Assembly (NCBI RefSeq): GCF_001677475.2 | Contig: NZ_CP015229.1 | Direction: 5' to 3' (one strand) | Origin: Escherichia coli | GTDB taxonomy: Bacteria; Pseudomonadota; Gammaproteobacteria; Enterobacterales; Enterobacteriaceae | Length of the DNA stretch: 64,000 nucleotides | Shown: in pieces, positions 28,955-43,605 of the stretch | Layout of the letters: each line of letters begins with the position of its first letter | Numbering within the stretch: position 1 is the stretch's first letter | Translations under genes and position numbers: made by a program | Notes under the pieces: model-generated | What the model was told of the DNA's origin: nothing | Databases searched by the model: none | The model's input: the letters and a program-made list of their open reading frames with translations, nothing else

Positions 28955-28982
28955 GTGCCCATTCCTGACGGAATGGGCACTT
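28955..28982 (+). terminator. putative terminator after aroH
   Basis: 10-bp stem GTGCCCATTC/GAATGGGCAC with 6-nt loop right after the aroH stop. Confidence 0.45.
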
Positions 28983-29081
28983 CTGCGCAACTTGTTGTCT
29001 TCTCAACACATTACTGCTTGCTCTGGCCCGCTATAATATTGATAATAAGAATCATTGTTATATCAATTATTATTAATTTTT

Positions 29082-29273
29082 ATGCGTTATACGGATAGCA
29101 GAAAACTCACGCCTGAAACGGATGCCAATCACAAGACCGCTTCCCCGCAGCCCATCCGGCGAATAACCAGCCAGACACTGTTAGGGCCGGATGGCAAACT
29201 GATTATCGATCATGACGGGCAAGAATATCTGCTCCGTAAAACTCAGGCTGGCAAGCTGCTGTTGACCAAGTAG
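29082..29273 (+). CDS. ydiE: HemP-like small protein
   Basis: ORF 29055..29273; start at [12 protein letters not shown] giving 63 aa; synteny. Confidence 0.7.
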
Positions 29274-34704: not shown

Positions 34705-34813
34705 ATAAACACAAACAAAAATCAATAAGTTAGATAATTATCAAAGACTTACAGACACACAAAAACACAGCAAACCACAACAAATAACATAGATGTGGTC
34801 AATTTGTGGATCA

Positions 34814-35344
34814 TCATCCAACAAATTTAGCAACAAATACAGCAACCGCCGCCGTGAAAATGGTTGTGCATACTGGCACAATAATGCCACTCCAACGCCA
34901 CTTCGTATTATCATCAACCTTGTCAAACCGCCGATTCATCTCATCCATAATCTTGTCAAAGCGTTTATCCATCGCTTCGGTAAGCTCACCCTTCAGGCTG
35001 TTAATGTCTGATTTGAGCTGCTCTTTCAGGTTAGCTGTATCAGATTTAAGCTCACCTTTCAGATTCGCAATATCGCATTTAAGATCACCTTTCAGATTCG
35101 CAATGTCTGCTTTGAGCTCACCTTTAACCTCACCAACATCGGCTTTGGTTGAGAGGTTTGTAGTGCGTTCAGCAAGCGTCGCAAGGTCGTTTCTTGTTAG
35201 CGATAAATCACCTTCGAGCCGCTCAATTCGCCTTTCAAGTTTATCTGACATTCCGCCTCCACTATCACCGCCTCCCCCACCGAAAGAGTTGCCAATGTCC
35301 TCACGAATAAGGGTTATGCCATGCTCACTTTTAGCATATGCCAC
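34814..35344 (-). CDS. tail-anchored coiled-coil membrane protein with tandem 11-residue repeats (unknown function)
   Basis: 176-aa ORF; Gly-rich N-terminus, repeats DIANLKGDLKC/DIANLKGELKS/DTANLKEQLKS/DINSLKGELTE, single C-terminal TM helix; abuts upstream ORF. Confidence 0.6.
   Translation of the reverse strand: MAYAKSEHGITLIREDIGNSFGGGGGDSGGGMSDKLERRIERLEGDLSLTRNDLATLAERTTNLSTKADVGEVKGELKADIANLKGDLKCDIANLKGELKSDTANLKEQLKSDINSLKGELTEAMDKRFDKIMDEMNRRFDKVDDNTKWRWSGIIVPVCTTIFTAAVAVFVAKFVG
34993..35128. repeat. tandem ~33-bp direct repeats inside ORF 34814..35344
   Basis: Repeated units of the form CACCTTTCAGATTCGCAATnTCnnnTTTnAGnT visible in sequence (4 copies, degenerate). Confidence 0.7.
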
Positions 35345-35758
35345 TCAGATTCCCTCCCAAACTATATATCCTTTGTCTCTTGCCCAACAAACAACTGTGT
35401 GGGCTGTATATGTGGATGTGAAGCCGCAATAAGAACATGACACTTCATACCGAGTATTGTAGATGTTAATGGGCTCGTTCTCCTTGTGTATGGGAGTGAC
35501 ATATTCCCAATCATTTGAATCATCATAATCATCAAGTTCAGGGTCTGTGCCGTGAACAACCGTATGTGGAATAAACAAATCTAGGCGCCCACACGAGAGA
35601 CAAGAGGTTCTGGCTCCTCTATCTTTAAGGAATTGAATAAATAATTTGGGCGAAATCTGTTGCAGAACCTGCAAATGCCCACGTTCATTATCATTAAGAG
35701 ACCTGTCTGCATATGGAAAATCATCAAATTTAAGAGGCTTCATATAAGGCATCTCCAA
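35345..35758 (-). CDS. zinc-ribbon-containing protein of unknown function
   Basis: 137-aa ORF with CLSCG...CSYCG Cys pairs; overlaps int 3' end and abuts the next ORF (operon-like); alternative start 35743. Confidence 0.5.
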   Translation of the reverse strand: MEMPYMKPLKFDDFPYADRSLNDNERGHLQVLQQISPKLFIQFLKDRGARTSCLSCGRLDLFIPHTVVHGTDPELDDYDDSNDWEYVTPIHKENEPINIYNTRYEVSCSYCGFTSTYTAHTVVCWARDKGYIVWEGI

Positions 35759-36722
35759 GGGGATTAAATCTCACCGCATCCTGCAGGTAATCCGGCGCAA
35801 GATGGGCATAAATCATCGTTGTCTGAATCTTTGCGTGCCCCAGAATTTTCTGGAGCGTCAGAATATTGCCGCCGTTCATCATGAAATGACTGGCGAAGGT
35901 GTGGCGCAGCGCATGAACAGCCTGGCCGTCAGGAACATCAGGTGCGACCGTTTTGATGACATCGCGAACCAATGGATAATCCAGCGTCGGAAACACCAGT
36001 TTCCCGCCCCGTTTTTTGATCTTTTCAAACAGGCTTTCAGAAATAGGAACGGTACGGTTTTTGCTGTTCTTCGTTTTTGAAAAAGTGATTCGACAATGAA
36101 GAACACGGCGCTGCTCCAGTGCCGCTACCTCGCCCCATCGCGCCCCGGTCGACAGAAGGATTTCGACAGCCAGCCGTTCATCGGGATTTTCAGCCAGTGC
36201 ATCCAGCAACTGAACACATTCAGACTTACTCAGATATCCCATTTCGCGCTCGTTAACCTTCATTCCTTTAAGGCCTTGAACGGGGTTATCGTTAAGAAAA
36301 TGGCCGGATGAGATGAGTGCGGTAAACATCGCGCTTAACGCCCCAATCTCTCGATTTATGGTGCTGGGCTGTATCCCCTGCTCTATCCTGGACACACGTA
36401 GCTCGGTGAGCATCGTTGTATTAAGTTTATGCACGCACGGGTCATCCATTGCCTCACTCAAGCGCAGCAATTTAAGGCGCGTGTTATGCCCTGACTTCAT
36501 TAGCTGGCCGTGGTATTTCCACCACAAGTCAATAAGCACCGACAGCGGACGGCGATCAATGGAGTTTCCTTTCCACTCATTGTTATGCTGTTGCGCCAGC
36601 ACCCACCGCTCATATAAAACTGCATCCGATTTCGTTTTAAATTTTTTGCGAATGCGTTTGCCTTTACGCCCCTCCGGGCGCATGTCAAGAAGATACCCTC
36701 CCGGAATTGATTTTATGCTCAT
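35730..36722 (-). CDS. tyrosine integrase, P2 Int-like
   Basis: ORF 35730..36872; start set at internal Met (MSIKSIPGGYLLDMRPEGRKGKRIRKKF) by resemblance to P2 Int N-terminus; C-terminal catalytic region TGARWGE...HALRHTFASHFMMNGG...LGH...IYAH. Confidence 0.9.
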   Translation of the reverse strand: MSIKSIPGGYLLDMRPEGRKGKRIRKKFKTKSDAVLYERWVLAQQHNNEWKGNSIDRRPLSVLIDLWWKYHGQLMKSGHNTRLKLLRLSEAMDDPCVHKLNTTMLTELRVSRIEQGIQPSTINREIGALSAMFTALISSGHFLNDNPVQGLKGMKVNEREMGYLSKSECVQLLDALAENPDERLAVEILLSTGARWGEVAALEQRRVLHCRITFSKTKNSKNRTVPISESLFEKIKKRGGKLVFPTLDYPLVRDVIKTVAPDVPDGQAVHALRHTFASHFMMNGGNILTLQKILGHAKIQTTMIYAHLAPDYLQDAVRFNPLGDALYEAS

Positions 36723-36771
36723 TCGTGAAACCCCAGCGTTACAAGACCACCATGCCCCCAGCGCTCCATGA

Positions 36772-37083
36772 TTAGCCGGGCTGTGTGCCAGTCTTGCGGG
36801 GTTTTTGAGAAGGCGATGTGCTTTTTGGCCCATCAGGGGAGAGAGACGGACTGATCTGCCCAGCAGCCTCATTTGTTTCGTTACTCATCAACCACGTGGT
36901 GTATTTTTTAAAGTTCGGATGCATTGTGATTTTCAGTAAAACCTCCGTCCCCACACCTCTAATACCAGTCTCATATTGCTTAACTGTACCAACCGCAATA
37001 CCTATTGAATCCGCGAACTTTGCCTGGCTAAGTCCCTCAGATTCTCGAATTGCTTTTAGCTTCTTTGATATCTCTATTGACAT
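36772..37083 (-). CDS. P2 C-type immunity repressor (HTH, no peptidase domain)
   Basis: ORF 36772..37155; start set at MSIEISKK (ATG 37081-37083, AGG RBS); HTH plus motif KYTTWLMSNE...GQISPSL resembling P2 C. Confidence 0.75.
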   Translation of the reverse strand: MSIEISKKLKAIRESEGLSQAKFADSIGIAVGTVKQYETGIRGVGTEVLLKITMHPNFKKYTTWLMSNETNEAAGQISPSLSPDGPKSTSPSQKPRKTGTQPG

Positions 37084-37178
37084 GGTGTGCACCTGAATAC
37101 TATATTGGTTATCAGTTGAGTACCACTTGACGCCACAAAAAGCCACAAATAGCACCAGATTGAATAGGTTATCACATC
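37084..37178. promoter_or_regulatory. divergent early promoter/operator region (repressor vs cox-like operon)
   Basis: Intergenic between divergent C-like and cox-like genes; GGTTATCA repeated at 37107..37114 and 37167..37174; TTGACG -35-like element. Confidence 0.5.
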
Positions 37179-38110: not shown

Positions 38111-38353
38111 ATGGACAAAGAATATAAAACACTCATCAACAAAGCACTTGAGCGTTTTTATTTTCGCTTAAGCGCATCAGGCGTTCATGCTGAACGTGCA
38201 GCCCGTGACTCATTGACCAGGGCAATCCGGAGTCTGTATGACGTGGCTTTTTACGCTGATGATCTGGATGCACTTAACGAACTTTCCGAGCTGATCTGTG
38301 CCGCAGAATGCGGAGAACATATTGAACCGTATAAGCTGGGGAATATCGCATGA
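38111..38353 (+). CDS. phage early protein, unknown function
   Basis: 80-aa ORF; operon context. Confidence 0.45.
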   Translation: MDKEYKTLINKALERFYFRLSASGVHAERAARDSLTRAIRSLYDVAFYADDLDALNELSELICAAECGEHIEPYKLGNIA

Positions 38354-38463
38354 GTATATTTATCTCATGGCTTGTTCTGATTATTTCGGTGGCCTGCGCC
38401 ATTGGGATTATGCGAATTATTAATTCAGTGAAAAAGATCGAGCGTTTTTTCTCTGATGAATAA
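38350..38463 (+). CDS. small hydrophobic peptide (37 aa), unknown function
   Basis: ATG overlaps previous stop (ATGA); MSIFISWLVLIISVACAIGIMRIINSVKKIERFFSDE; single TM-like segment; below ORF-track length cut-off. Confidence 0.35.
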   Translation: MSIFISWLVLIISVACAIGIMRIINSVKKIERFFSDE

Positions 38464-38556
38464 CGATACAAATAAAACATCAAATTAAATAAGAAAACGT
38501 GAAAACCATCCGTATTAACGGAGGTATTCGCACACGCAAATAACGGAGATACAAAA

Positions 38557-38967
38557 ATGCACGCAAAAGAAGAAGGTATCATCAGAGCACTGAAAGAAAT
38601 TTCAAAGATGGAAAGCGAAGTAGCGAAAAAAGCCGTGGCCAATGCTCACATGGACGTCGCAACCCACACAATGATAGTCGCAAAAGTCACGGCAGAAGCT
38701 GCCAAAATCATCGAAGAACAGGGTGTGGAACTTGCGCTTCTCAAAACTAAACCAGTCACCGGACTGGATTTATCTGACACCGGACGCCTTATTTACACTA
38801 TTGGCTCGGAGTCACAGCGATACACCATTATCGCCGGATTACAGAACAAATACCTGATCACTCCTCATCCCATAAGGGAATCAGCGCTTCTGACAAATCT
38901 CCGCCTGATAGAGCGCTCTCAAGTTGCATTCATTGATGACGCCCGACACACCGTATTTAACGCATAG
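38557..38967 (+). CDS. phage early protein, unknown function
   Basis: 136-aa ORF; operon context. Confidence 0.5.
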   Translation: MHAKEEGIIRALKEISKMESEVAKKAVANAHMDVATHTMIVAKVTAEAAKIIEEQGVELALLKTKPVTGLDLSDTGRLIYTIGSESQRYTIIAGLQNKYLITPHPIRESALLTNLRLIERSQVAFIDDARHTVFNA

Positions 38968-39753: not shown

Positions 39754-40075
39754 GAAACCAGAACATGCACACACAAAAAAACCGCTTGCCATGCCGCAAT
39801 CAGTCAGGTTACATTTCCGCTGCACCTCATAAAACGGGTGCCGGGTTTCGCAGCCTGCTAACTACACAAGCGCACAACCGCGCCAGCGGTTTTTTTGTGC
39901 GTACTGTATTGCCACGTTTTTTTCGCGCCAGAATTATGGCGGGGCGTACGGGGCCGACTTCGGTCGGGCCGGGTTCTTGTGTAGCCGGTACTGCGAACCT
40001 CGTACGTCTCGCCACCCACAGTTTCGCAGCTCTGGATGGTAAGTTTTCACAACTTACTACACAAGAGGCCACACC

Positions 40076-40306
40076 ATGGCAAACCGCAAACAACAGCGCG
40101 CATACGCTGCGCGTCGTCACATCCAGACTGAAATCAACCGCAGACTTTCCCGCGCATTCCGCGTCACTAAAATCATGCACATCAATATGCTGCATGAGCG
40201 TAGCTGCGAACTTTCAAACCTCTATTCATCCGCTGTTTTCAGCTATCTGGCGGATGATCTGCGCGAGCTTCAGCAGCTCATCCAGCAGCAAAACAAACTC
40301 CATTAA
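40076..40306 (+). CDS. phage early protein, unknown function
   Basis: 76-aa ORF with AGAGG RBS; basic. Confidence 0.4.
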   Translation: MANRKQQRAYAARRHIQTEINRRLSRAFRVTKIMHINMLHERSCELSNLYSSAVFSYLADDLRELQQLIQQQNKLH

Positions 40307-40378: not shown

Positions 40379-40768
40379 ATGATTGACGCTCATGACTTCA
40401 CAAGATGGGTGCGCACACAGGACACCCGTCTGGCTCCCGTTCTTCAGGGATTATTTGATCTTTACATCCGTGGTCGTGACAACAGAGCACGCACTACAAA
40501 ACCGGAGAATGCGGACACCCTTTATTTCACAGTAGACGACTGCTACCGCGTGGACTTCACACCACACGGGCTGGCGTTGCACTGCCTGACACCACACGGC
40601 GAATCACTGCTGGCGTATTACGACTCCCCGGCCTCCGTATTTGCGGCAATGCTGGCGCATCGCACTGCTGGCGGGTGTGCCTCGCTGAGTGAATACACCG
40701 CTGAATTTAACCGCCTTTCCGCCATCTTCTCGCAGGAGTGGCAGCGCGTGACGGGATACCAGCCATGA
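40379..40768 (+). CDS. phage early protein, unknown function
   Basis: 129-aa ORF; stop overlaps gpA start (ATGA). Confidence 0.5.
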   Translation: MIDAHDFTRWVRTQDTRLAPVLQGLFDLYIRGRDNRARTTKPENADTLYFTVDDCYRVDFTPHGLALHCLTPHGESLLAYYDSPASVFAAMLAHRTAGGCASLSEYTAEFNRLSAIFSQEWQRVTGYQP

Positions 40769-43605
40769 GTGAGTTTGCATGGAGCTGGAATGAACCACGG
40801 CCAGCCATTGATCCGGCCAGATTTACGGAGCGCAGGCAGGAAACTGAAACCGACCTGCAACGCGCCATCCGTTACTACCTTGAGGCAGACAAAAGGGCAC
40901 AGGAAGAACAGGAAGCGAAGGAAGAAGCCTTTTTCGCACAATCCACCGTGGGTAAAAAACTCATGGCATCCCTTGAGGAAGCCGGACAGCGTGAAAAGCT
41001 GGCACAGAGCATCATCAGTAAGCGCCGGGCAACAGAACAAGACACGGTAGCCCGTGCCTTTGCCACACTAAAGGCACTACCTGTTTATCTGCGTGAACCA
41101 CTGAGCCGCCACCTCTCTTTCCTGCGCAAAAAACAGGAAGCCGATCGCCGGAAAGGCAAAAAGAGCTGGCAGGCGGAACGCTATGCACGCGGAACCCTGC
41201 GCAAAATATTCGAACGTCTGGACCGCACCGACAGCCGCTGGCTGACACCGGGTTATCGCGCCCTTGCCGGACGCGAACGCCTGGACGATTTGCTTTACCT
41301 GCCGCAGCTCAACAAACACCAGATACAGACGCTGGCCACCATGACAGCGGCGATGTTCAGCAGCACCTTCGAAAAACTCTGCGATGGCTTTGGCGCGACT
41401 GATGGCGAGCTGACCATGGATGTAACGCTGAAGGCGTATCAGATGCTGGCCCGCATGGCGTTACACCTGCACGCCATGCCTCCGCATTATGACGTACTGA
41501 CAACAGACAAAGACCGGAGGAACGAACCAGACACAGAACTGCTGCCGGGCGCAATCCTTCGCCTGACCTGTGCGGAATGGTGGAAACGCAAACTGTGGCT
41601 GTTACGTTGCGAGTGGCGGGAAGAACAACTCCGAGCCGCCTGTCTGGTTTCCAGAAAAACATCGCCCTATCTGAGCCAGGACGCGTTAAGCGAGTTTCGC
41701 GCACAGCGCGAGAAAACACGCGATTTCCTGAAAAGTTTCATGCTGGAAAATGAAGACGGGTTCACGATTGATCTCGAGACGGTGTATTACGCGGGAGTAA
41801 GTAACCCGGTTCACCGTAAGGCAGAAATGATGGCCACCATGAAGGGACTGGAACTTCTGGCCGAAGCCCGTGGCGACAGAGCGGTGTTTCTGACCGTCAC
41901 CTGCCCGTCAAAATACCACGCAACAACGGAGAACGGTCATCCGAACCCCAAATGGAACGGGGCCACCATGCGCGACTCCAGCGATTACCTGGTTAACACG
42001 TTTTTTGCGGCGGTCCGCAAAAAACTGAACCGCGACGGCCTGCGCTGGTATGGCATCCGCACGGTGGAGCCTCACCATGACGGCACTGTGCACTGGCATA
42101 TGATGGTCTTTGCACATCCGGACGAGATTGAAACCATCGTGTCCCACGTCTGCGATATTGCCATTCAGGAGGACCGCCACGAGCTGGGCGATGACATAAC
42201 TCCGCGTTTTAAGGCGGAGTATGTCGACGGCTCAAAAGGCACACCAACCAGCTACATCGCCACCTACATCGGAAAGAACTTGGACAGCCGCGCCGTGGAT
42301 GGCATCGACCCGAAAACGGGCAAGCCACGCGTTGACCACGAAACCGGAAAATCAATGGCCGAGAGCGTGGAGCGCGCCATCGGCTGGGCGCGCCTTCACC
42401 GGGTCCGTCAGTTCCAGTTCTTTGGCATCCCCTCCCGTCAGGTGTGGCGTGAACTGCGCCGCCTTGCCAGCCAGATGGCACGCAATCCGGAAGGCCCGCA
42501 ACGGCTGAAAGATGATGCAATGGATGCGGTACTCGCTGCCGCCGATGCCGGGTGTTTTGCCACCTACATTGAAAAACAGGGTGGCGTGCTTGTTCCACGC
42601 AAGGACTACCTGATTCGCACCGCCTACGACCTCGCAGATGAGCTGAACGATTACGGCGAACAGAGCGTACAGATTTACGGGATCTGGTCACCACTCATCG
42701 GGGAATCCTCCCGTGTGTGCACGCATCCGGATAACTGGAAGTTGGTAAGACGTAAACCAGAACCGGAAGACAACGCCCACGAAAATGGTTTTGACCTTCA
42801 GGGCGGCCCTGCCGCCCCTTGGACTCGTGGCAATAACTGTCCCCGTGTACAGGAAACGGACAATAACGGGACAGAACTGCCGGAAGAACGGCCAGCACCG
42901 TGGCCGCAGCTCCCTGACGGCGTTGAAGTGAACGAATGGATGCGCTCACTGAAACAGCACGAACGCCGGGCGCTGATGCGTTCGCTTCGTGACAAACAGG
43001 CAAAAAACAGCAGTGATGAAATGCAGAGCTGGACACAGAGCCGCAAACAGCAGCGGCCTTTGCCTGATAACCACGAATTACTCGCTAAAGAATGGCGGGA
43101 GTCTGCTGAATCTCTCGGCCTGCATATCGGTGAACAACAGATGCAGCACCTGTTACGGGGCGGCAGCCTGTACGTTGACGGCAGCATCATTGCACCGCAG
43201 GGATTTGAAATTGTACGCAAACCGGATACCCGCCCGGACAGCCGAATCACGCAGCTCTGGCAGCGCCTGAGCCGTAATCATGGCGTAAGCAGCACGGAGA
43301 TCCGCCATAACCCGGTCGCCAGCTATCTGGCACAGCTGGGGGCATCAGACCCTGAAGTCGCCGCACGCCTGGCATCCACACTTCAGCAGGACCAGAACAC
43401 CATGAAAACACCCGTTACCGTGCTTTCTGACATGCTGCGCGCCATCCGCGACGCAGAGCACGCACAGAGAATCAGTGAAACCACTGAACGCGCCCGCCGC
43501 AAAGCAGACCTGCTGCGGGGTGGCCTGACCAGTGGAAACAAAAAACAGACAGAAACGGGACTCATGAATCCCGTAAATGAGCAAAAAACGCGCAGCGATA
43601 TATGA
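40765..43605 (+). CDS. rolling-circle replication initiator, P2 gpA-like, with long C-terminal extension
   Basis: ORF 40738..43605; start set at ATG 40765 (MSEFAWSW); HWHMMVF and ATYIGKN motifs typical of gpA-family nicking proteins; 946 aa. Confidence 0.8.
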   Translation: MSEFAWSWNEPRPAIDPARFTERRQETETDLQRAIRYYLEADKRAQEEQEAKEEAFFAQSTVGKKLMASLEEAGQREKLAQSIISKRRATEQDTVARAFATLKALPVYLREPLSRHLSFLRKKQEADRRKGKKSWQAERYARGTLRKIFERLDRTDSRWLTPGYRALAGRERLDDLLYLPQLNKHQIQTLATMTAAMFSSTFEKLCDGFGATDGELTMDVTLKAYQMLARMALHLHAMPPHYDVLTTDKDRRNEPDTELLPGAILRLTCAEWWKRKLWLLRCEWREEQLRAACLVSRKTSPYLSQDALSEFRAQREKTRDFLKSFMLENEDGFTIDLETVYYAGVSNPVHRKAEMMATMKGLELLAEARGDRAVFLTVTCPSKYHATTENGHPNPKWNGATMRDSSDYLVNTFFAAVRKKLNRDGLRWYGIRTVEPHHDGTVHWHMMVFAHPDEIETIVSHVCDIAIQEDRHELGDDITPRFKAEYVDGSKGTPTSYIATYIGKNLDSRAVDGIDPKTGKPRVDHETGKSMAESVERAIGWARLHRVRQFQFFGIPSRQVWRELRRLASQMARNPEGPQRLKDDAMDAVLAAADAGCFATYIEKQGGVLVPRKDYLIRTAYDLADELNDYGEQSVQIYGIWSPLIGESSRVCTHPDNWKLVRRKPEPEDNAHENGFDLQGGPAAPWTRGNNCPRVQETDNNGTELPEERPAPWPQLPDGVEVNEWMRSLKQHERRALMRSLRDKQAKNSSDEMQSWTQSRKQQRPLPDNHELLAKEWRESAESLGLHIGEQQMQHLLRGGSLYVDGSIIAPQGFEIVRKPDTRPDSRITQLWQRLSRNHGVSSTEIRHNPVASYLAQLGASDPEVAARLASTLQQDQNTMKTPVTVLSDMLRAIRDAEHAQRISETTERARRKADLLRGGLTSGNKKQTETGLMNPVNEQKTRSDI

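What the first reader, a model, noticed from the sequence alone, without database searches (positions are those of the whole stretch)
38350..38463. Unannotated 37-codon hydrophobic peptide overlapping the preceding stop codon
A short ORF (MSIFISWLVLIISVACAIGIMRIINSVKKIERFFSDE), missed by the length cut-off, is translationally coupled (ATGA) to the upstream early gene and has a single TM-like helix. Small membrane peptides in phage early operons often modulate host membrane proteins or act in exclusion.
Basis: seen in the sequence. Interest (0 to 1): 0.3.

Follow-up and report, generated by a model that had tools for sequence, protein, structure and literature searches.

The report
Small prophage early membrane protein gene
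The 37-codon reading frame is a real, conserved gene for a tiny single-helix membrane protein in the early operon of a P88-type (P2-like) E. coli prophage, but public databases already annotate it and nothing is known about its function.

Summary
The ORF at 38350-38463 (+) exists exactly as described, including the ATGA overlap with the upstream 80-aa gene (DUF4754). It is a genuine coding gene. All 94 related loci, fetched mainly through the neighbouring gene, carry it starting at the same ATGA. dN/dS is about 0.25-0.35 in its frame and 0.7-3.2 in the off-frames. Its hydrophobic core is far above chance, and the 122-aa antisense ORF is broken in most relatives. It encodes a 19-residue transmembrane helix followed by an amphipathic, positively charged tail.

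"Unannotated" is wrong in the public sense. The exact sequence is RefSeq WP_000021659.1, and the orthologue is phage P88 gp07 "membrane protein". The region occurs in about a quarter of complete E. coli genomes. The family is narrow: P88-like prophages of Escherichia, Shigella, Salmonella and Citrobacter. No Pfam, PHROGs, NCBIfam or PADLOC model covers it, and I found no literature.

It sits in the repressor-controlled early lytic operon, so I infer an early-lytic membrane function acting through its helix. Exclusion in lysogens is less likely. The function is untested.

Side finding: a covarying RNA hairpin at 38509-38522 travels with the gene.

The parts
38350..38463 (+). Gene for a 37-aa small membrane protein (P88 gp07 family; exact match to RefSeq WP_000021659.1), stop codon included
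   Evidence: Conservation and dN/dS.
38350..38353 (+). ATGA start/stop overlap with the upstream DUF4754 gene; a recombination junction in relative L085
   Evidence: Present in 94 of 94 loci. Identity between L084 and L085 jumps from about 0.5 to 1.0 exactly here.
38334..38342 (+). SD-like G-rich element (AGCTGGGGA) inside the 3' end of the DUF4754 gene
   Evidence: Duplex energy with the anti-SD is -5.5 kcal/mol here and -4.2 to -8.5 in four divergent lineages, although the overlapping DUF4754 C-termini differ.
38356..38412 (+). Codons 3-21: the transmembrane core (IFISWLVLIISVACAIGIM). S6, W7, L10, A17 and G19 are invariant, and position 13 is always S or A
   Evidence: Best 19-mer KD mean is 2.68 at residues 3-21. 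Invariant columns. Pooled pN/pS 0.286. AF2 predicts a helix over residues 2-35 with pLDDT 88.
38413..38460 (+). Codons 22-37: amphipathic, net-positive cytoplasmic tail (RIINSVKKIERFFSDE)
   Evidence: Hydrophobic moment 1.3-2.0 against 0.2-0.5 for the TM core; 4-5 K/R, net charge +1 to +3. Pooled pN/pS 0.362.
38445..38450 (+). T6 run: the site where common 45-aa alleles (...ERFSLVNNDTNKTSN) leave the frame. An A5 run at 38431-38435 coincides with the point where a second set of 45-aa alleles diverges
   Evidence: The 45-aa allele P0031 is on at least 1000 contigs.
38111..38353 (+). Upstream partner gene: DUF4754 (PF15946), 80 aa, predicted three-helix bundle
   Evidence: Pfam E = 4.9e-54. AF2 pLDDT 92, pTM 0.80. 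Always directly upstream of the peptide gene.
38509..38522 (+). Conserved hairpin TCCGT-ATTA-ACGGA in the 93-nt spacer after the gene; the 3' arm runs into GGAGG
   Evidence: The hairpin pattern matched 93 places in the 94 sequences scanned, as 22 distinct variants; spacers of all lineages are printed. 99.1% of cells are paired, 2 of 5 pairs have compensatory changes, and 0 of 500 shuffles reach the covariation score. The one-sided changes are U-G and G-U, which pair only on the + strand. No Rfam family.
37077..37106 (+). Early promoter (Pe)-like site TTGACA-18-TATATT that would drive the operon containing the gene
   Evidence: 11 of 12 consensus match. It is the only + strand promoter match between 36700 and 39786.

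Best explanation
A bona fide, already annotated gene encodes a 37-aa single-pass inner-membrane protein of a P88-like (Xuanwuvirus, P2-type) prophage.

Shown:
- The frame is under purifying selection.
- It always follows the DUF4754 gene with an ATGA overlap and an SD-like element.
- It encodes a 19-residue hydrophobic helix followed by an amphipathic, positively charged tail.
- It lies inside the early lytic operon.

Inferred:
- It is transcribed from Pe, so it is repressed by C in the lysogen and made early after infection or induction.
- It is translated by coupling to DUF4754.
- It inserts N-out/C-in, by the positive-inside rule.
- It acts inside the membrane through its conserved helix face (S6, W7, S/A13, A17, G19). 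It would do so by packing against a host or phage inner-membrane protein or against itself, as other small membrane proteins do, while the short tail stays at the cytoplasmic face.

My sub-confidences: real translated membrane-protein gene about 0.9; early-lytic, coupled expression about 0.7; action by helix-helix interaction with a membrane target about 0.3.
For: - ORF and overlap.
- Public annotation and exact-sequence records.
- The ORF starts at the ATGA in 94 of 94 loci, and 86 of them are full length at 37 or 41 aa.
- Divergent 41-aa members at 49-62% identity keep the same architecture and the same position after DUF4754, while the flanking genes vary.
- dN/dS is 0.25-0.35 in frame against 0.7-3.2 off frame. 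Codon-position bias is 8/6/18.
- The peptide is more conserved than its partner (pN 0.19-0.29 against 0.24-0.53) in all pairs but one.
- TM core, tail amphipathicity and charge asymmetry, and SD-like elements.
- Single helix, pLDDT 88.
- Hydropathy far above chance.
- Only one strong + strand promoter match, upstream of the first early gene.
- Frameshift alleles that replace only the last residues are common, so the helix is the constrained part.
Against: - I found no expression, localisation or phenotype data.
- No target is known.
- The tail is also under constraint (pN/pS 0.362), so the function may not lie in the helix alone.
- The promoter scan is a consensus match only and cannot exclude weak internal or non-sigma-70 promoters.
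- The window's own SD-like element is weak (-5.5 kcal/mol).
- L085 pairs a window-type DUF4754 with an L084-type peptide, so the two proteins need not be a co-adapted complex.
Confidence: 0.6

Rival explanations
1. Membrane-damaging small toxin. The peptide oligomerises and depolarises the inner membrane, as a type I toxin or holin-like protein does. This could shut down the host early or abort infection.
For: Size, the single TM helix and the short charged tail match the general description of type I toxins (under 60 aa, one TM helix, short extensions; PMC12648545). A conserved S/A13-x3-A17-x-G19 small-residue face could support self-association.
Against: - No match to any Pfam, NCBIfam or PADLOC toxin family.
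- It is an internal, overlap-coupled cistron of a polycistronic early operon and has no promoter of its own.
- No antisense RNA family overlaps it. The one antisense promoter-like hit (38434-38407, 9 of 12) lies within chance expectation for the region (5 found, 4.6 expected).
- It is not in the lysis cassette.
- Alleles with frameshifted tails are widespread.
Confidence: 0.15
2. Membrane anchor for DUF4754. The peptide's cytoplasmic tail binds the three-helix-bundle protein made just before it, tethering an early function such as replication or regulation to the membrane. Phage phi29 p16.7 does this for replication (my own knowledge, not tested here).
For: - The DUF4754-peptide adjacency with a 4-nt overlap is invariant across all lineages, while genes on both sides are swapped.
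- Coupled translation favours equimolar synthesis at the same site.
- The tail is amphipathic and conserved (K28, I30 and F34 invariant).
Against: - L085 combines a window-type DUF4754 (85% identity) with an L084-type peptide, through a crossover exactly at the ATGA, so specific co-adaptation is not required.
- No true in-frame fusion of the two proteins exists; the longer database entries are frameshift artefacts.
- The DUF4754 fold is a generic helical bundle that gives no functional lead.
- Common 45-aa alleles lose the last tail residues or the whole KIERFF motif.
Confidence: 0.15
3. Superinfection exclusion or lysogenic-conversion factor made by the prophage in lysogens, which is the first reader's 'exclusion' option.
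For: Small membrane proteins of other temperate phages do this (general knowledge). The module is very common in E. coli, in 1392 of 5426 complete genomes.
Against: - The gene is in the rightward early operon behind the Pe-like promoter and opposite the C repressor gene.
- No internal + strand promoter match lies upstream of it.
- No PADLOC hit.
- Its prevalence follows that of the whole prophage.
Confidence: 0.07
4. Not a functional protein. The ORF would be a by-product of a conserved RNA or DNA element, a leader ORF for the hairpin and downstream gene, or the antisense 122-aa ORF (38274-38642, -) would be the real gene.
For: A conserved hairpin lies 45 nt downstream of the stop. A long antisense ORF exists in the window.
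Against: - Selection is frame-specific: in-frame dN/dS 0.25-0.35 against off-frame 0.7-3.2.
- The hydropathy pattern is kept at 49-62% identity.
- The antisense ORF has stops within the overlap, in every antisense frame, in 38 of 62 distinct relatives, including phage P88.
- The hairpin lies outside the ORF.
Confidence: 0.03

Closest known systems
Escherichia phage P88 gp07, 'membrane protein' (YP_009113050.1); RefSeq WP_000021659.1; UniRef 'Prophage membrane protein'
   Same: Same gene family. The window's sequence is identical to WP_000021659.1. Same length (114 nt), same position after DUF4754 and same 4-nt overlap.
   Different: Nothing material. Alleles differ at a few residues (A/V15, N/H25, SDE/TGE tail). 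None has been studied experimentally, as far as the searchable literature shows.
Type I toxins (Hok/Gef, Ldr, Fst, TisB, DinQ, ZorO), including prophage-borne ones
   Same: Under 60 aa, one TM helix and a short charged extension (PMC12648545).
   Different: No sequence-family match. Not a separate transcription unit. No antisense RNA detected. It is a coupled internal cistron of an early lytic operon.
Bacterial small membrane-protein regulators (for example MgtS and MgtR, which bind magnesium transporters)
   Same: About 30-50 aa, single-pass, acting through helix packing with a larger membrane protein (PMC12648545). This is the mode of action proposed here.
   Different: No homology, phage-encoded, and no partner known. 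The resemblance is architectural only.
Phage early small membrane proteins that target host machinery, or anchor phage processes (B. subtilis phage SPO1 gp56 division inhibitor; phi29 p16.7 replication anchor). Cited from my own knowledge, not tested here
   Same: Early-expressed, bitopic and small.
   Different: No sequence relationship, different hosts, and p16.7 and gp56 are larger (about 80-130 aa). No evidence here for division or replication phenotypes.
TatA/TatE (TM helix plus amphipathic helix)
   Same: The same two-part architecture. One family member (P0050) gives a weak hit to PRK04561 (E = 0.0043, 16.9 bits).
   Different: The score is far below the 104-bit cut-off, and the window's own peptide gives no hit. 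This is most likely compositional similarity.

Membership tests
P88 gp07 / 'prophage membrane protein' family (WP_000021659.1) | Sequence identity to annotated members | tested here: met
   The exact 37-aa sequence is in the public collection on at least 1000 contigs. It is annotated as a CDS in NZ_CP172152.1 at the matching position. The P88 gp07 orthologue has the same length and position.
P88 gp07 / 'prophage membrane protein' family (WP_000021659.1) | Position directly after DUF4754 with a 4-nt overlap, in a P2-type early operon between the cox-like gene and the replication endonuclease gene | tested here: met
   (94 of 94 loci).
Type I toxin-antitoxin toxins (Hok/Gef, Ldr, Fst, TisB, Ibs, ShoB, DinQ, ZorO) | Small hydrophobic protein with one TM helix | tested here: met
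Type I toxin-antitoxin toxins (Hok/Gef, Ldr, Fst, TisB, Ibs, ShoB, DinQ, ZorO) | Match to a curated toxin family model | tested here: not met
   No Pfam family at E <= 0.1. NCBIfam gives only compositional hits at E >= 0.16 for the window peptide. PADLOC gives none.
Type I toxin-antitoxin toxins (Hok/Gef, Ldr, Fst, TisB, Ibs, ShoB, DinQ, ZorO) | Own transcription unit with a cis- or trans-encoded antisense RNA antitoxin | tested here: not met
   It is an internal, overlap-coupled cistron. No Rfam antisense RNA overlaps it. The only antisense promoter-like site is a 9-of-12 match within chance expectation. Transcript mapping would be needed for certainty.
Type I toxin-antitoxin toxins (Hok/Gef, Ldr, Fst, TisB, Ibs, ShoB, DinQ, ZorO) | Toxicity or membrane depolarisation on expression | not testable with these tools
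   Needs an experiment.
Holins, antiholins and spanins | Location in the late lysis cassette and a match to a holin or spanin family | tested here: not met
   The gene lies in the early operon, 2.3 kb upstream of the replication endonuclease gene. No Pfam or PHROGs hit.
Bacterial lipoprotein or cleavable signal peptide | Conserved lipobox cysteine and a positively charged N-region | tested here: not met
   C16 is replaced by M or F in divergent members. No K or R occurs before residue 22.
TatA/TatE | Score above the family cut-off | tested here: not met
   Best score is 16.9 bits against a cut-off of 104, and only for P0050.
Prophage superinfection-exclusion or lysogenic-conversion membrane proteins | Expression from the repressed prophage, through its own promoter or the lysogenic operon | tested here: inconclusive
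   The gene is in the Pe-type early operon, with no + strand promoter match between 37106 and 39786. A consensus scan cannot prove the absence of a promoter.
Small membrane-protein regulators of larger membrane proteins (functional class, not a sequence family) | Physical binding to a membrane protein partner | not testable with these tools
   Needs pull-down, two-hybrid or cross-linking experiments.

The most novel reading that the evidence does not exclude
The peptide, alone or together with DUF4754, is a host-takeover effector specific to P88-like phages. Its conserved TM helix face would bind and inhibit, or redirect, an essential E. coli inner-membrane machine early in lytic growth, for example a divisome, insertase or transport component. 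The covarying hairpin just downstream would be part of the same mobile cassette and would control its mRNA stability or the expression of the next gene.
Probability: 0.2. Interest if true: 0.45.

Novelty: already known. Interest (0 to 1): 0.15.

Why it matters
The module occurs in about a quarter of complete E. coli genomes (1392 of 5426), yet neither the peptide nor DUF4754 has any assigned function. If the peptide targets a host membrane protein, it would be a compact natural inhibitor and a handle on early events in P2-type phage development. As it stands, the practical value is modest. The work confirms that current annotation pipelines already capture this small gene correctly, and it defines the gene's conserved features (TM face, coupling signal, downstream hairpin) for anyone who wants to test it.

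Tried and rejected
I replaced it with the exhaustive profile search.
2. Pfam, PHROGs, NCBIfam and PADLOC scans of the peptide found no family. I rejected the TatA hit as sub-threshold.
3. The genome-contig scan with a DUF4754 profile returned one locus, a Collinsella-labelled MAG contig that is probably mis-binned. It gave no information on taxonomic range.
4. I checked DUF4754 entries of 103-116 aa as possible natural DUF4754-peptide fusions. They read into the third frame and are frameshift artefacts, mostly from raw-read assemblies.
6. Literature searches for DUF4754, P88, the accessions and the peptide sequence found nothing on this gene.
7. The lipoprotein reading (SVAC as a lipobox) fails because C16 is not conserved.
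8. The antisense 122-aa ORF is not conserved, so I rejected it.
9. A minus-strand terminator reading of the hairpin is disfavoured. The two one-sided stem variants are G-U and U-G pairs on the + strand and would be mismatches on the - strand.
10. I did not attempt a paired AF2 model of DUF4754 with the peptide, because the tool returns no inter-chain confidence.

Full report
**1. Observation**

The window at 38350-38463 (+) holds an ATG-to-TAA frame of 37 codons. It translates to MSIFISWLVLIISVACAIGIMRIINSVKKIERFFSDE. Its ATG overlaps the TGA of the preceding 80-aa ORF (38111-38353) as ATGA. The description is accurate.

**2. Context**

The region is the regulatory and early part of a P88-like (Xuanwuvirus, Peduoviridae, P2-type) prophage of E. 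coli.

- On the minus strand lie an integrase gene (35730-36872) and a C-type repressor gene.
- A strong sigma-70-like promoter match sits at 37077-37106 on the + strand (11 of 12).
- A tightly packed + strand operon then runs to the replication endonuclease gene at 40738-43605.
- That operon holds a 92-aa weakly Cox-like protein, DUF4761, a 92-aa protein, DUF4754, the 37-aa ORF, and further small genes.

A 2.4-kb stretch around the ORF matches 1392 of 5426 complete E. coli genomes and 14 deposited phage records.

**3. The ORF is already annotated**

- In the 99.8%-identical chromosome NZ_CP172152.1 it is a CDS, WP_000021659.1, 'hypothetical protein'.
- In phage P88 (NC_026014) it is gp07, 'membrane protein'.
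- In vB_EcoM-569R5 it is 'putative membrane protein'.
- The exact sequence is recorded on at least 1000 contigs. UniRef names it 'Prophage membrane protein', from Escherichia, Shigella and Salmonella.

**4. Is it a real coding gene?**

I fetched 80 viral contigs through the neighbouring DUF4754 protein, not through the peptide, so the sample was not selected for the ORF. With the other loci added, all 94 carry an ORF that starts at the ATGA. Lengths are 37 aa in 77, 41 aa in 9, 45 aa in 6, and 30 aa and 9 aa in one each.

- *Codon positions.* Variable sites fall 8/6/18 by codon position. The ORF varies at 32 of 111 sites, against 64 of 93 in the spacer that follows.
- *Family size.* An exhaustive profile search of 1.84 billion cluster representatives found only 17 hits, all from the same family. 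They include 41-aa members at 49-62% identity.
- *dN/dS.* Between these lineages, dN/dS is 0.25-0.35 in the annotated frame, with synonymous sites near saturation. In the two shifted frames it is 0.7-3.2.
- *Pooled ratios.* Pooled pN/pS over 37 alleles is 0.325, split as 0.286 for the TM part and 0.362 for the tail.
- *Conservation relative to the partner.* In all but one of the divergent pairs, the peptide is more conserved than DUF4754.
- *Antisense ORF.* The 122-aa ORF at 38274-38642 (-) is interrupted in 38 of 62 distinct relatives, including P88.
- *Hydropathy.* Only 2 of 225 short ATG-ORFs in the window are this hydrophobic, against 0.05 expected in shuffles. The other one overlaps the end of aroH out of frame and is probably spurious.

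**5. Anatomy**

- Residues 3-21 form a 19-residue hydrophobic core with a mean Kyte-Doolittle value of 2.68.
- No charged residue precedes R22.
- The tail (residues 22-37) has 4-5 K/R, net charge +1 to +3, and a high helical hydrophobic moment: 1.3-2.0 against 0.2-0.5 for the core.
- AF2 predicts one continuous helix over residues 2-35, with pLDDT 88.
- The invariant residues are S6, W7, L10, A17, G19, I23, I24, K28, I30 and F34. Position 13 is always S or A, which gives a small-residue face, S/A13-x3-A17-x-G19.
- By the positive-inside rule, the topology should be N-out/C-in. This is an inference.
- C16 is not conserved, which excludes a lipobox.
- An SD-like G-rich element lies 1-5 nt before the start in every lineage, although the overlapping DUF4754 C-termini differ.

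Alleles of 45 aa arise at a T6 run (38445-38450), and others diverge where an A5 run lies (38431-38435). They are common. They replace the last four residues, or the whole KIERFF motif, but keep the helix.

**6. Linkage with DUF4754**

In every lineage the DUF4754 gene comes directly before the peptide gene with the 4-nt overlap, while the genes on either side differ.

The two genes can nevertheless recombine apart. L085 has a window-type DUF4754 (85% identity), but its peptide gene and spacer are identical to those of L084. The crossover lies exactly at the ATGA.

Database entries of 103-116 aa are frameshift artefacts, not true fusions. DUF4754 is confidently modelled as a three-helix bundle (pLDDT 92, pTM 0.80). 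Fold searches return only generic helical matches.

**7. What it most likely does**

No Pfam, PHROGs, NCBIfam or PADLOC model covers the peptide, and no paper mentions it.

The anatomy and location support a small inner-membrane protein made early in lytic growth and translationally coupled to DUF4754. I infer that it acts through its conserved helix, by packing against a membrane partner or against itself. This matches the general mode of small membrane proteins reviewed in PMC12648545.

- *Type I toxin-like reading.* This is possible on architecture alone. It lacks the defining separate transcription unit, the antisense RNA and any family match.
- *Membrane anchor for DUF4754.* The invariant adjacency fits this reading. 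The mix-and-match recombinant weakens it.
- *Exclusion in lysogens.* The operon position disfavours this.
- *Non-coding reading.* The frame-specific selection rejects this.

**8. Side findings**

*Hairpin.* The 93-nt spacer after the gene is highly variable, except for a hairpin at 38509-38522 (TCCGT-ATTA-ACGGA, running into GGAGG).

- The hairpin pattern matched 93 places in the 94 sequences scanned, and the spacers of all lineages show it.
- 99.1% of cells are paired, and two of the five pairs show compensatory CG-to-UA changes.
- The covariation score is 0.253 against 0.146 in shuffles, and 0 of 500 shuffles reach it.
- Slid controls are 36-64% paired.
- The two one-sided changes are U-G and G-U, which pair only on the + strand RNA.
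- No Rfam family matches it.
- It travels with the peptide gene even where the downstream gene differs.

*Other RNAs.* Rfam also detects an isrK-like RNA (39822-39896) and a C4 antisense RNA (39932-40019). They lie upstream of a 76-aa ORF whose relatives carry the Pfam 'Derepression' domain.

**9. Verdict**

It is ordinary in kind and already present in public annotation. Its function remains unknown, and the family is narrow. Interest is low.

Noticed in passing
window 38509-38522 (+), within the spacer 38464-38556: A conserved 5-bp hairpin (TCCGT-ATTA-ACGGA, running into GGAGG) sits in an otherwise hypervariable spacer. Two stem pairs show compensatory CG-to-UA changes, and the one-sided changes are G-U/U-G, compatible only with the + strand. 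No Rfam family matches. It is inherited together with the peptide gene even where the downstream gene differs. Its function is unknown; it could be an mRNA stability or processing element, or a translational element.
   Followed up: partly
window 39809-40019 (+): Rfam detects an isrK-like RNA (39822-39896, 66.5 bits) and a C4 antisense RNA (39932-40019, 83.2 bits), with a weak a1/b1 target match. They lie just upstream of a 76-aa ORF (40076-40306) whose relatives carry the Pfam 'Derepression' domain. This looks like a P1/P7/P4-type c4-controlled antirepressor-like module inside the P88-like prophage.
   Followed up: no
L085:2762-3126 compared with L084 and window 38111-38463: A recombination junction lies exactly at the ATGA overlap. 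The DUF4754 of L085 is window-type (85% aa identity), while its peptide gene and spacer are 100% identical to those of L084. L085 also has a Mu-type transposase gene at its left end in place of int/C/cox.
   Followed up: partly
window 38445-38450 (T6 run) and 38431-38435 (A5 run): Frameshift alleles of the peptide gene (45 aa, with altered C-termini) leave the frame at or next to these homopolymer runs. They are widespread; one such allele is on at least 1000 contigs.
   Followed up: partly
window 28973-29098 (+): This is the only other short ORF in the window with a comparably hydrophobic 19-mer (41 aa, KD 2.87). By coordinate mapping to NZ_CP172152.1, it overlaps the 3' end of aroH in another frame, so it is probably spurious.
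   Followed up: partly
L093 (JAIJJM010000267.1, 'MAG: Collinsella sp.'): This 4-kb contig in an actinobacterial MAG encodes a DUF4754 that is 96% identical to the E. coli prophage protein. It is most likely a mis-binned enterobacterial prophage fragment.
   Followed up: no
window about 34800-35760 (-), left of the integrase gene: Two hypothetical genes lie between the integrase gene and btuC in the near-identical genome. The prophage therefore sits next to the btuCED locus. These two cargo genes were not examined.
   Followed up: no
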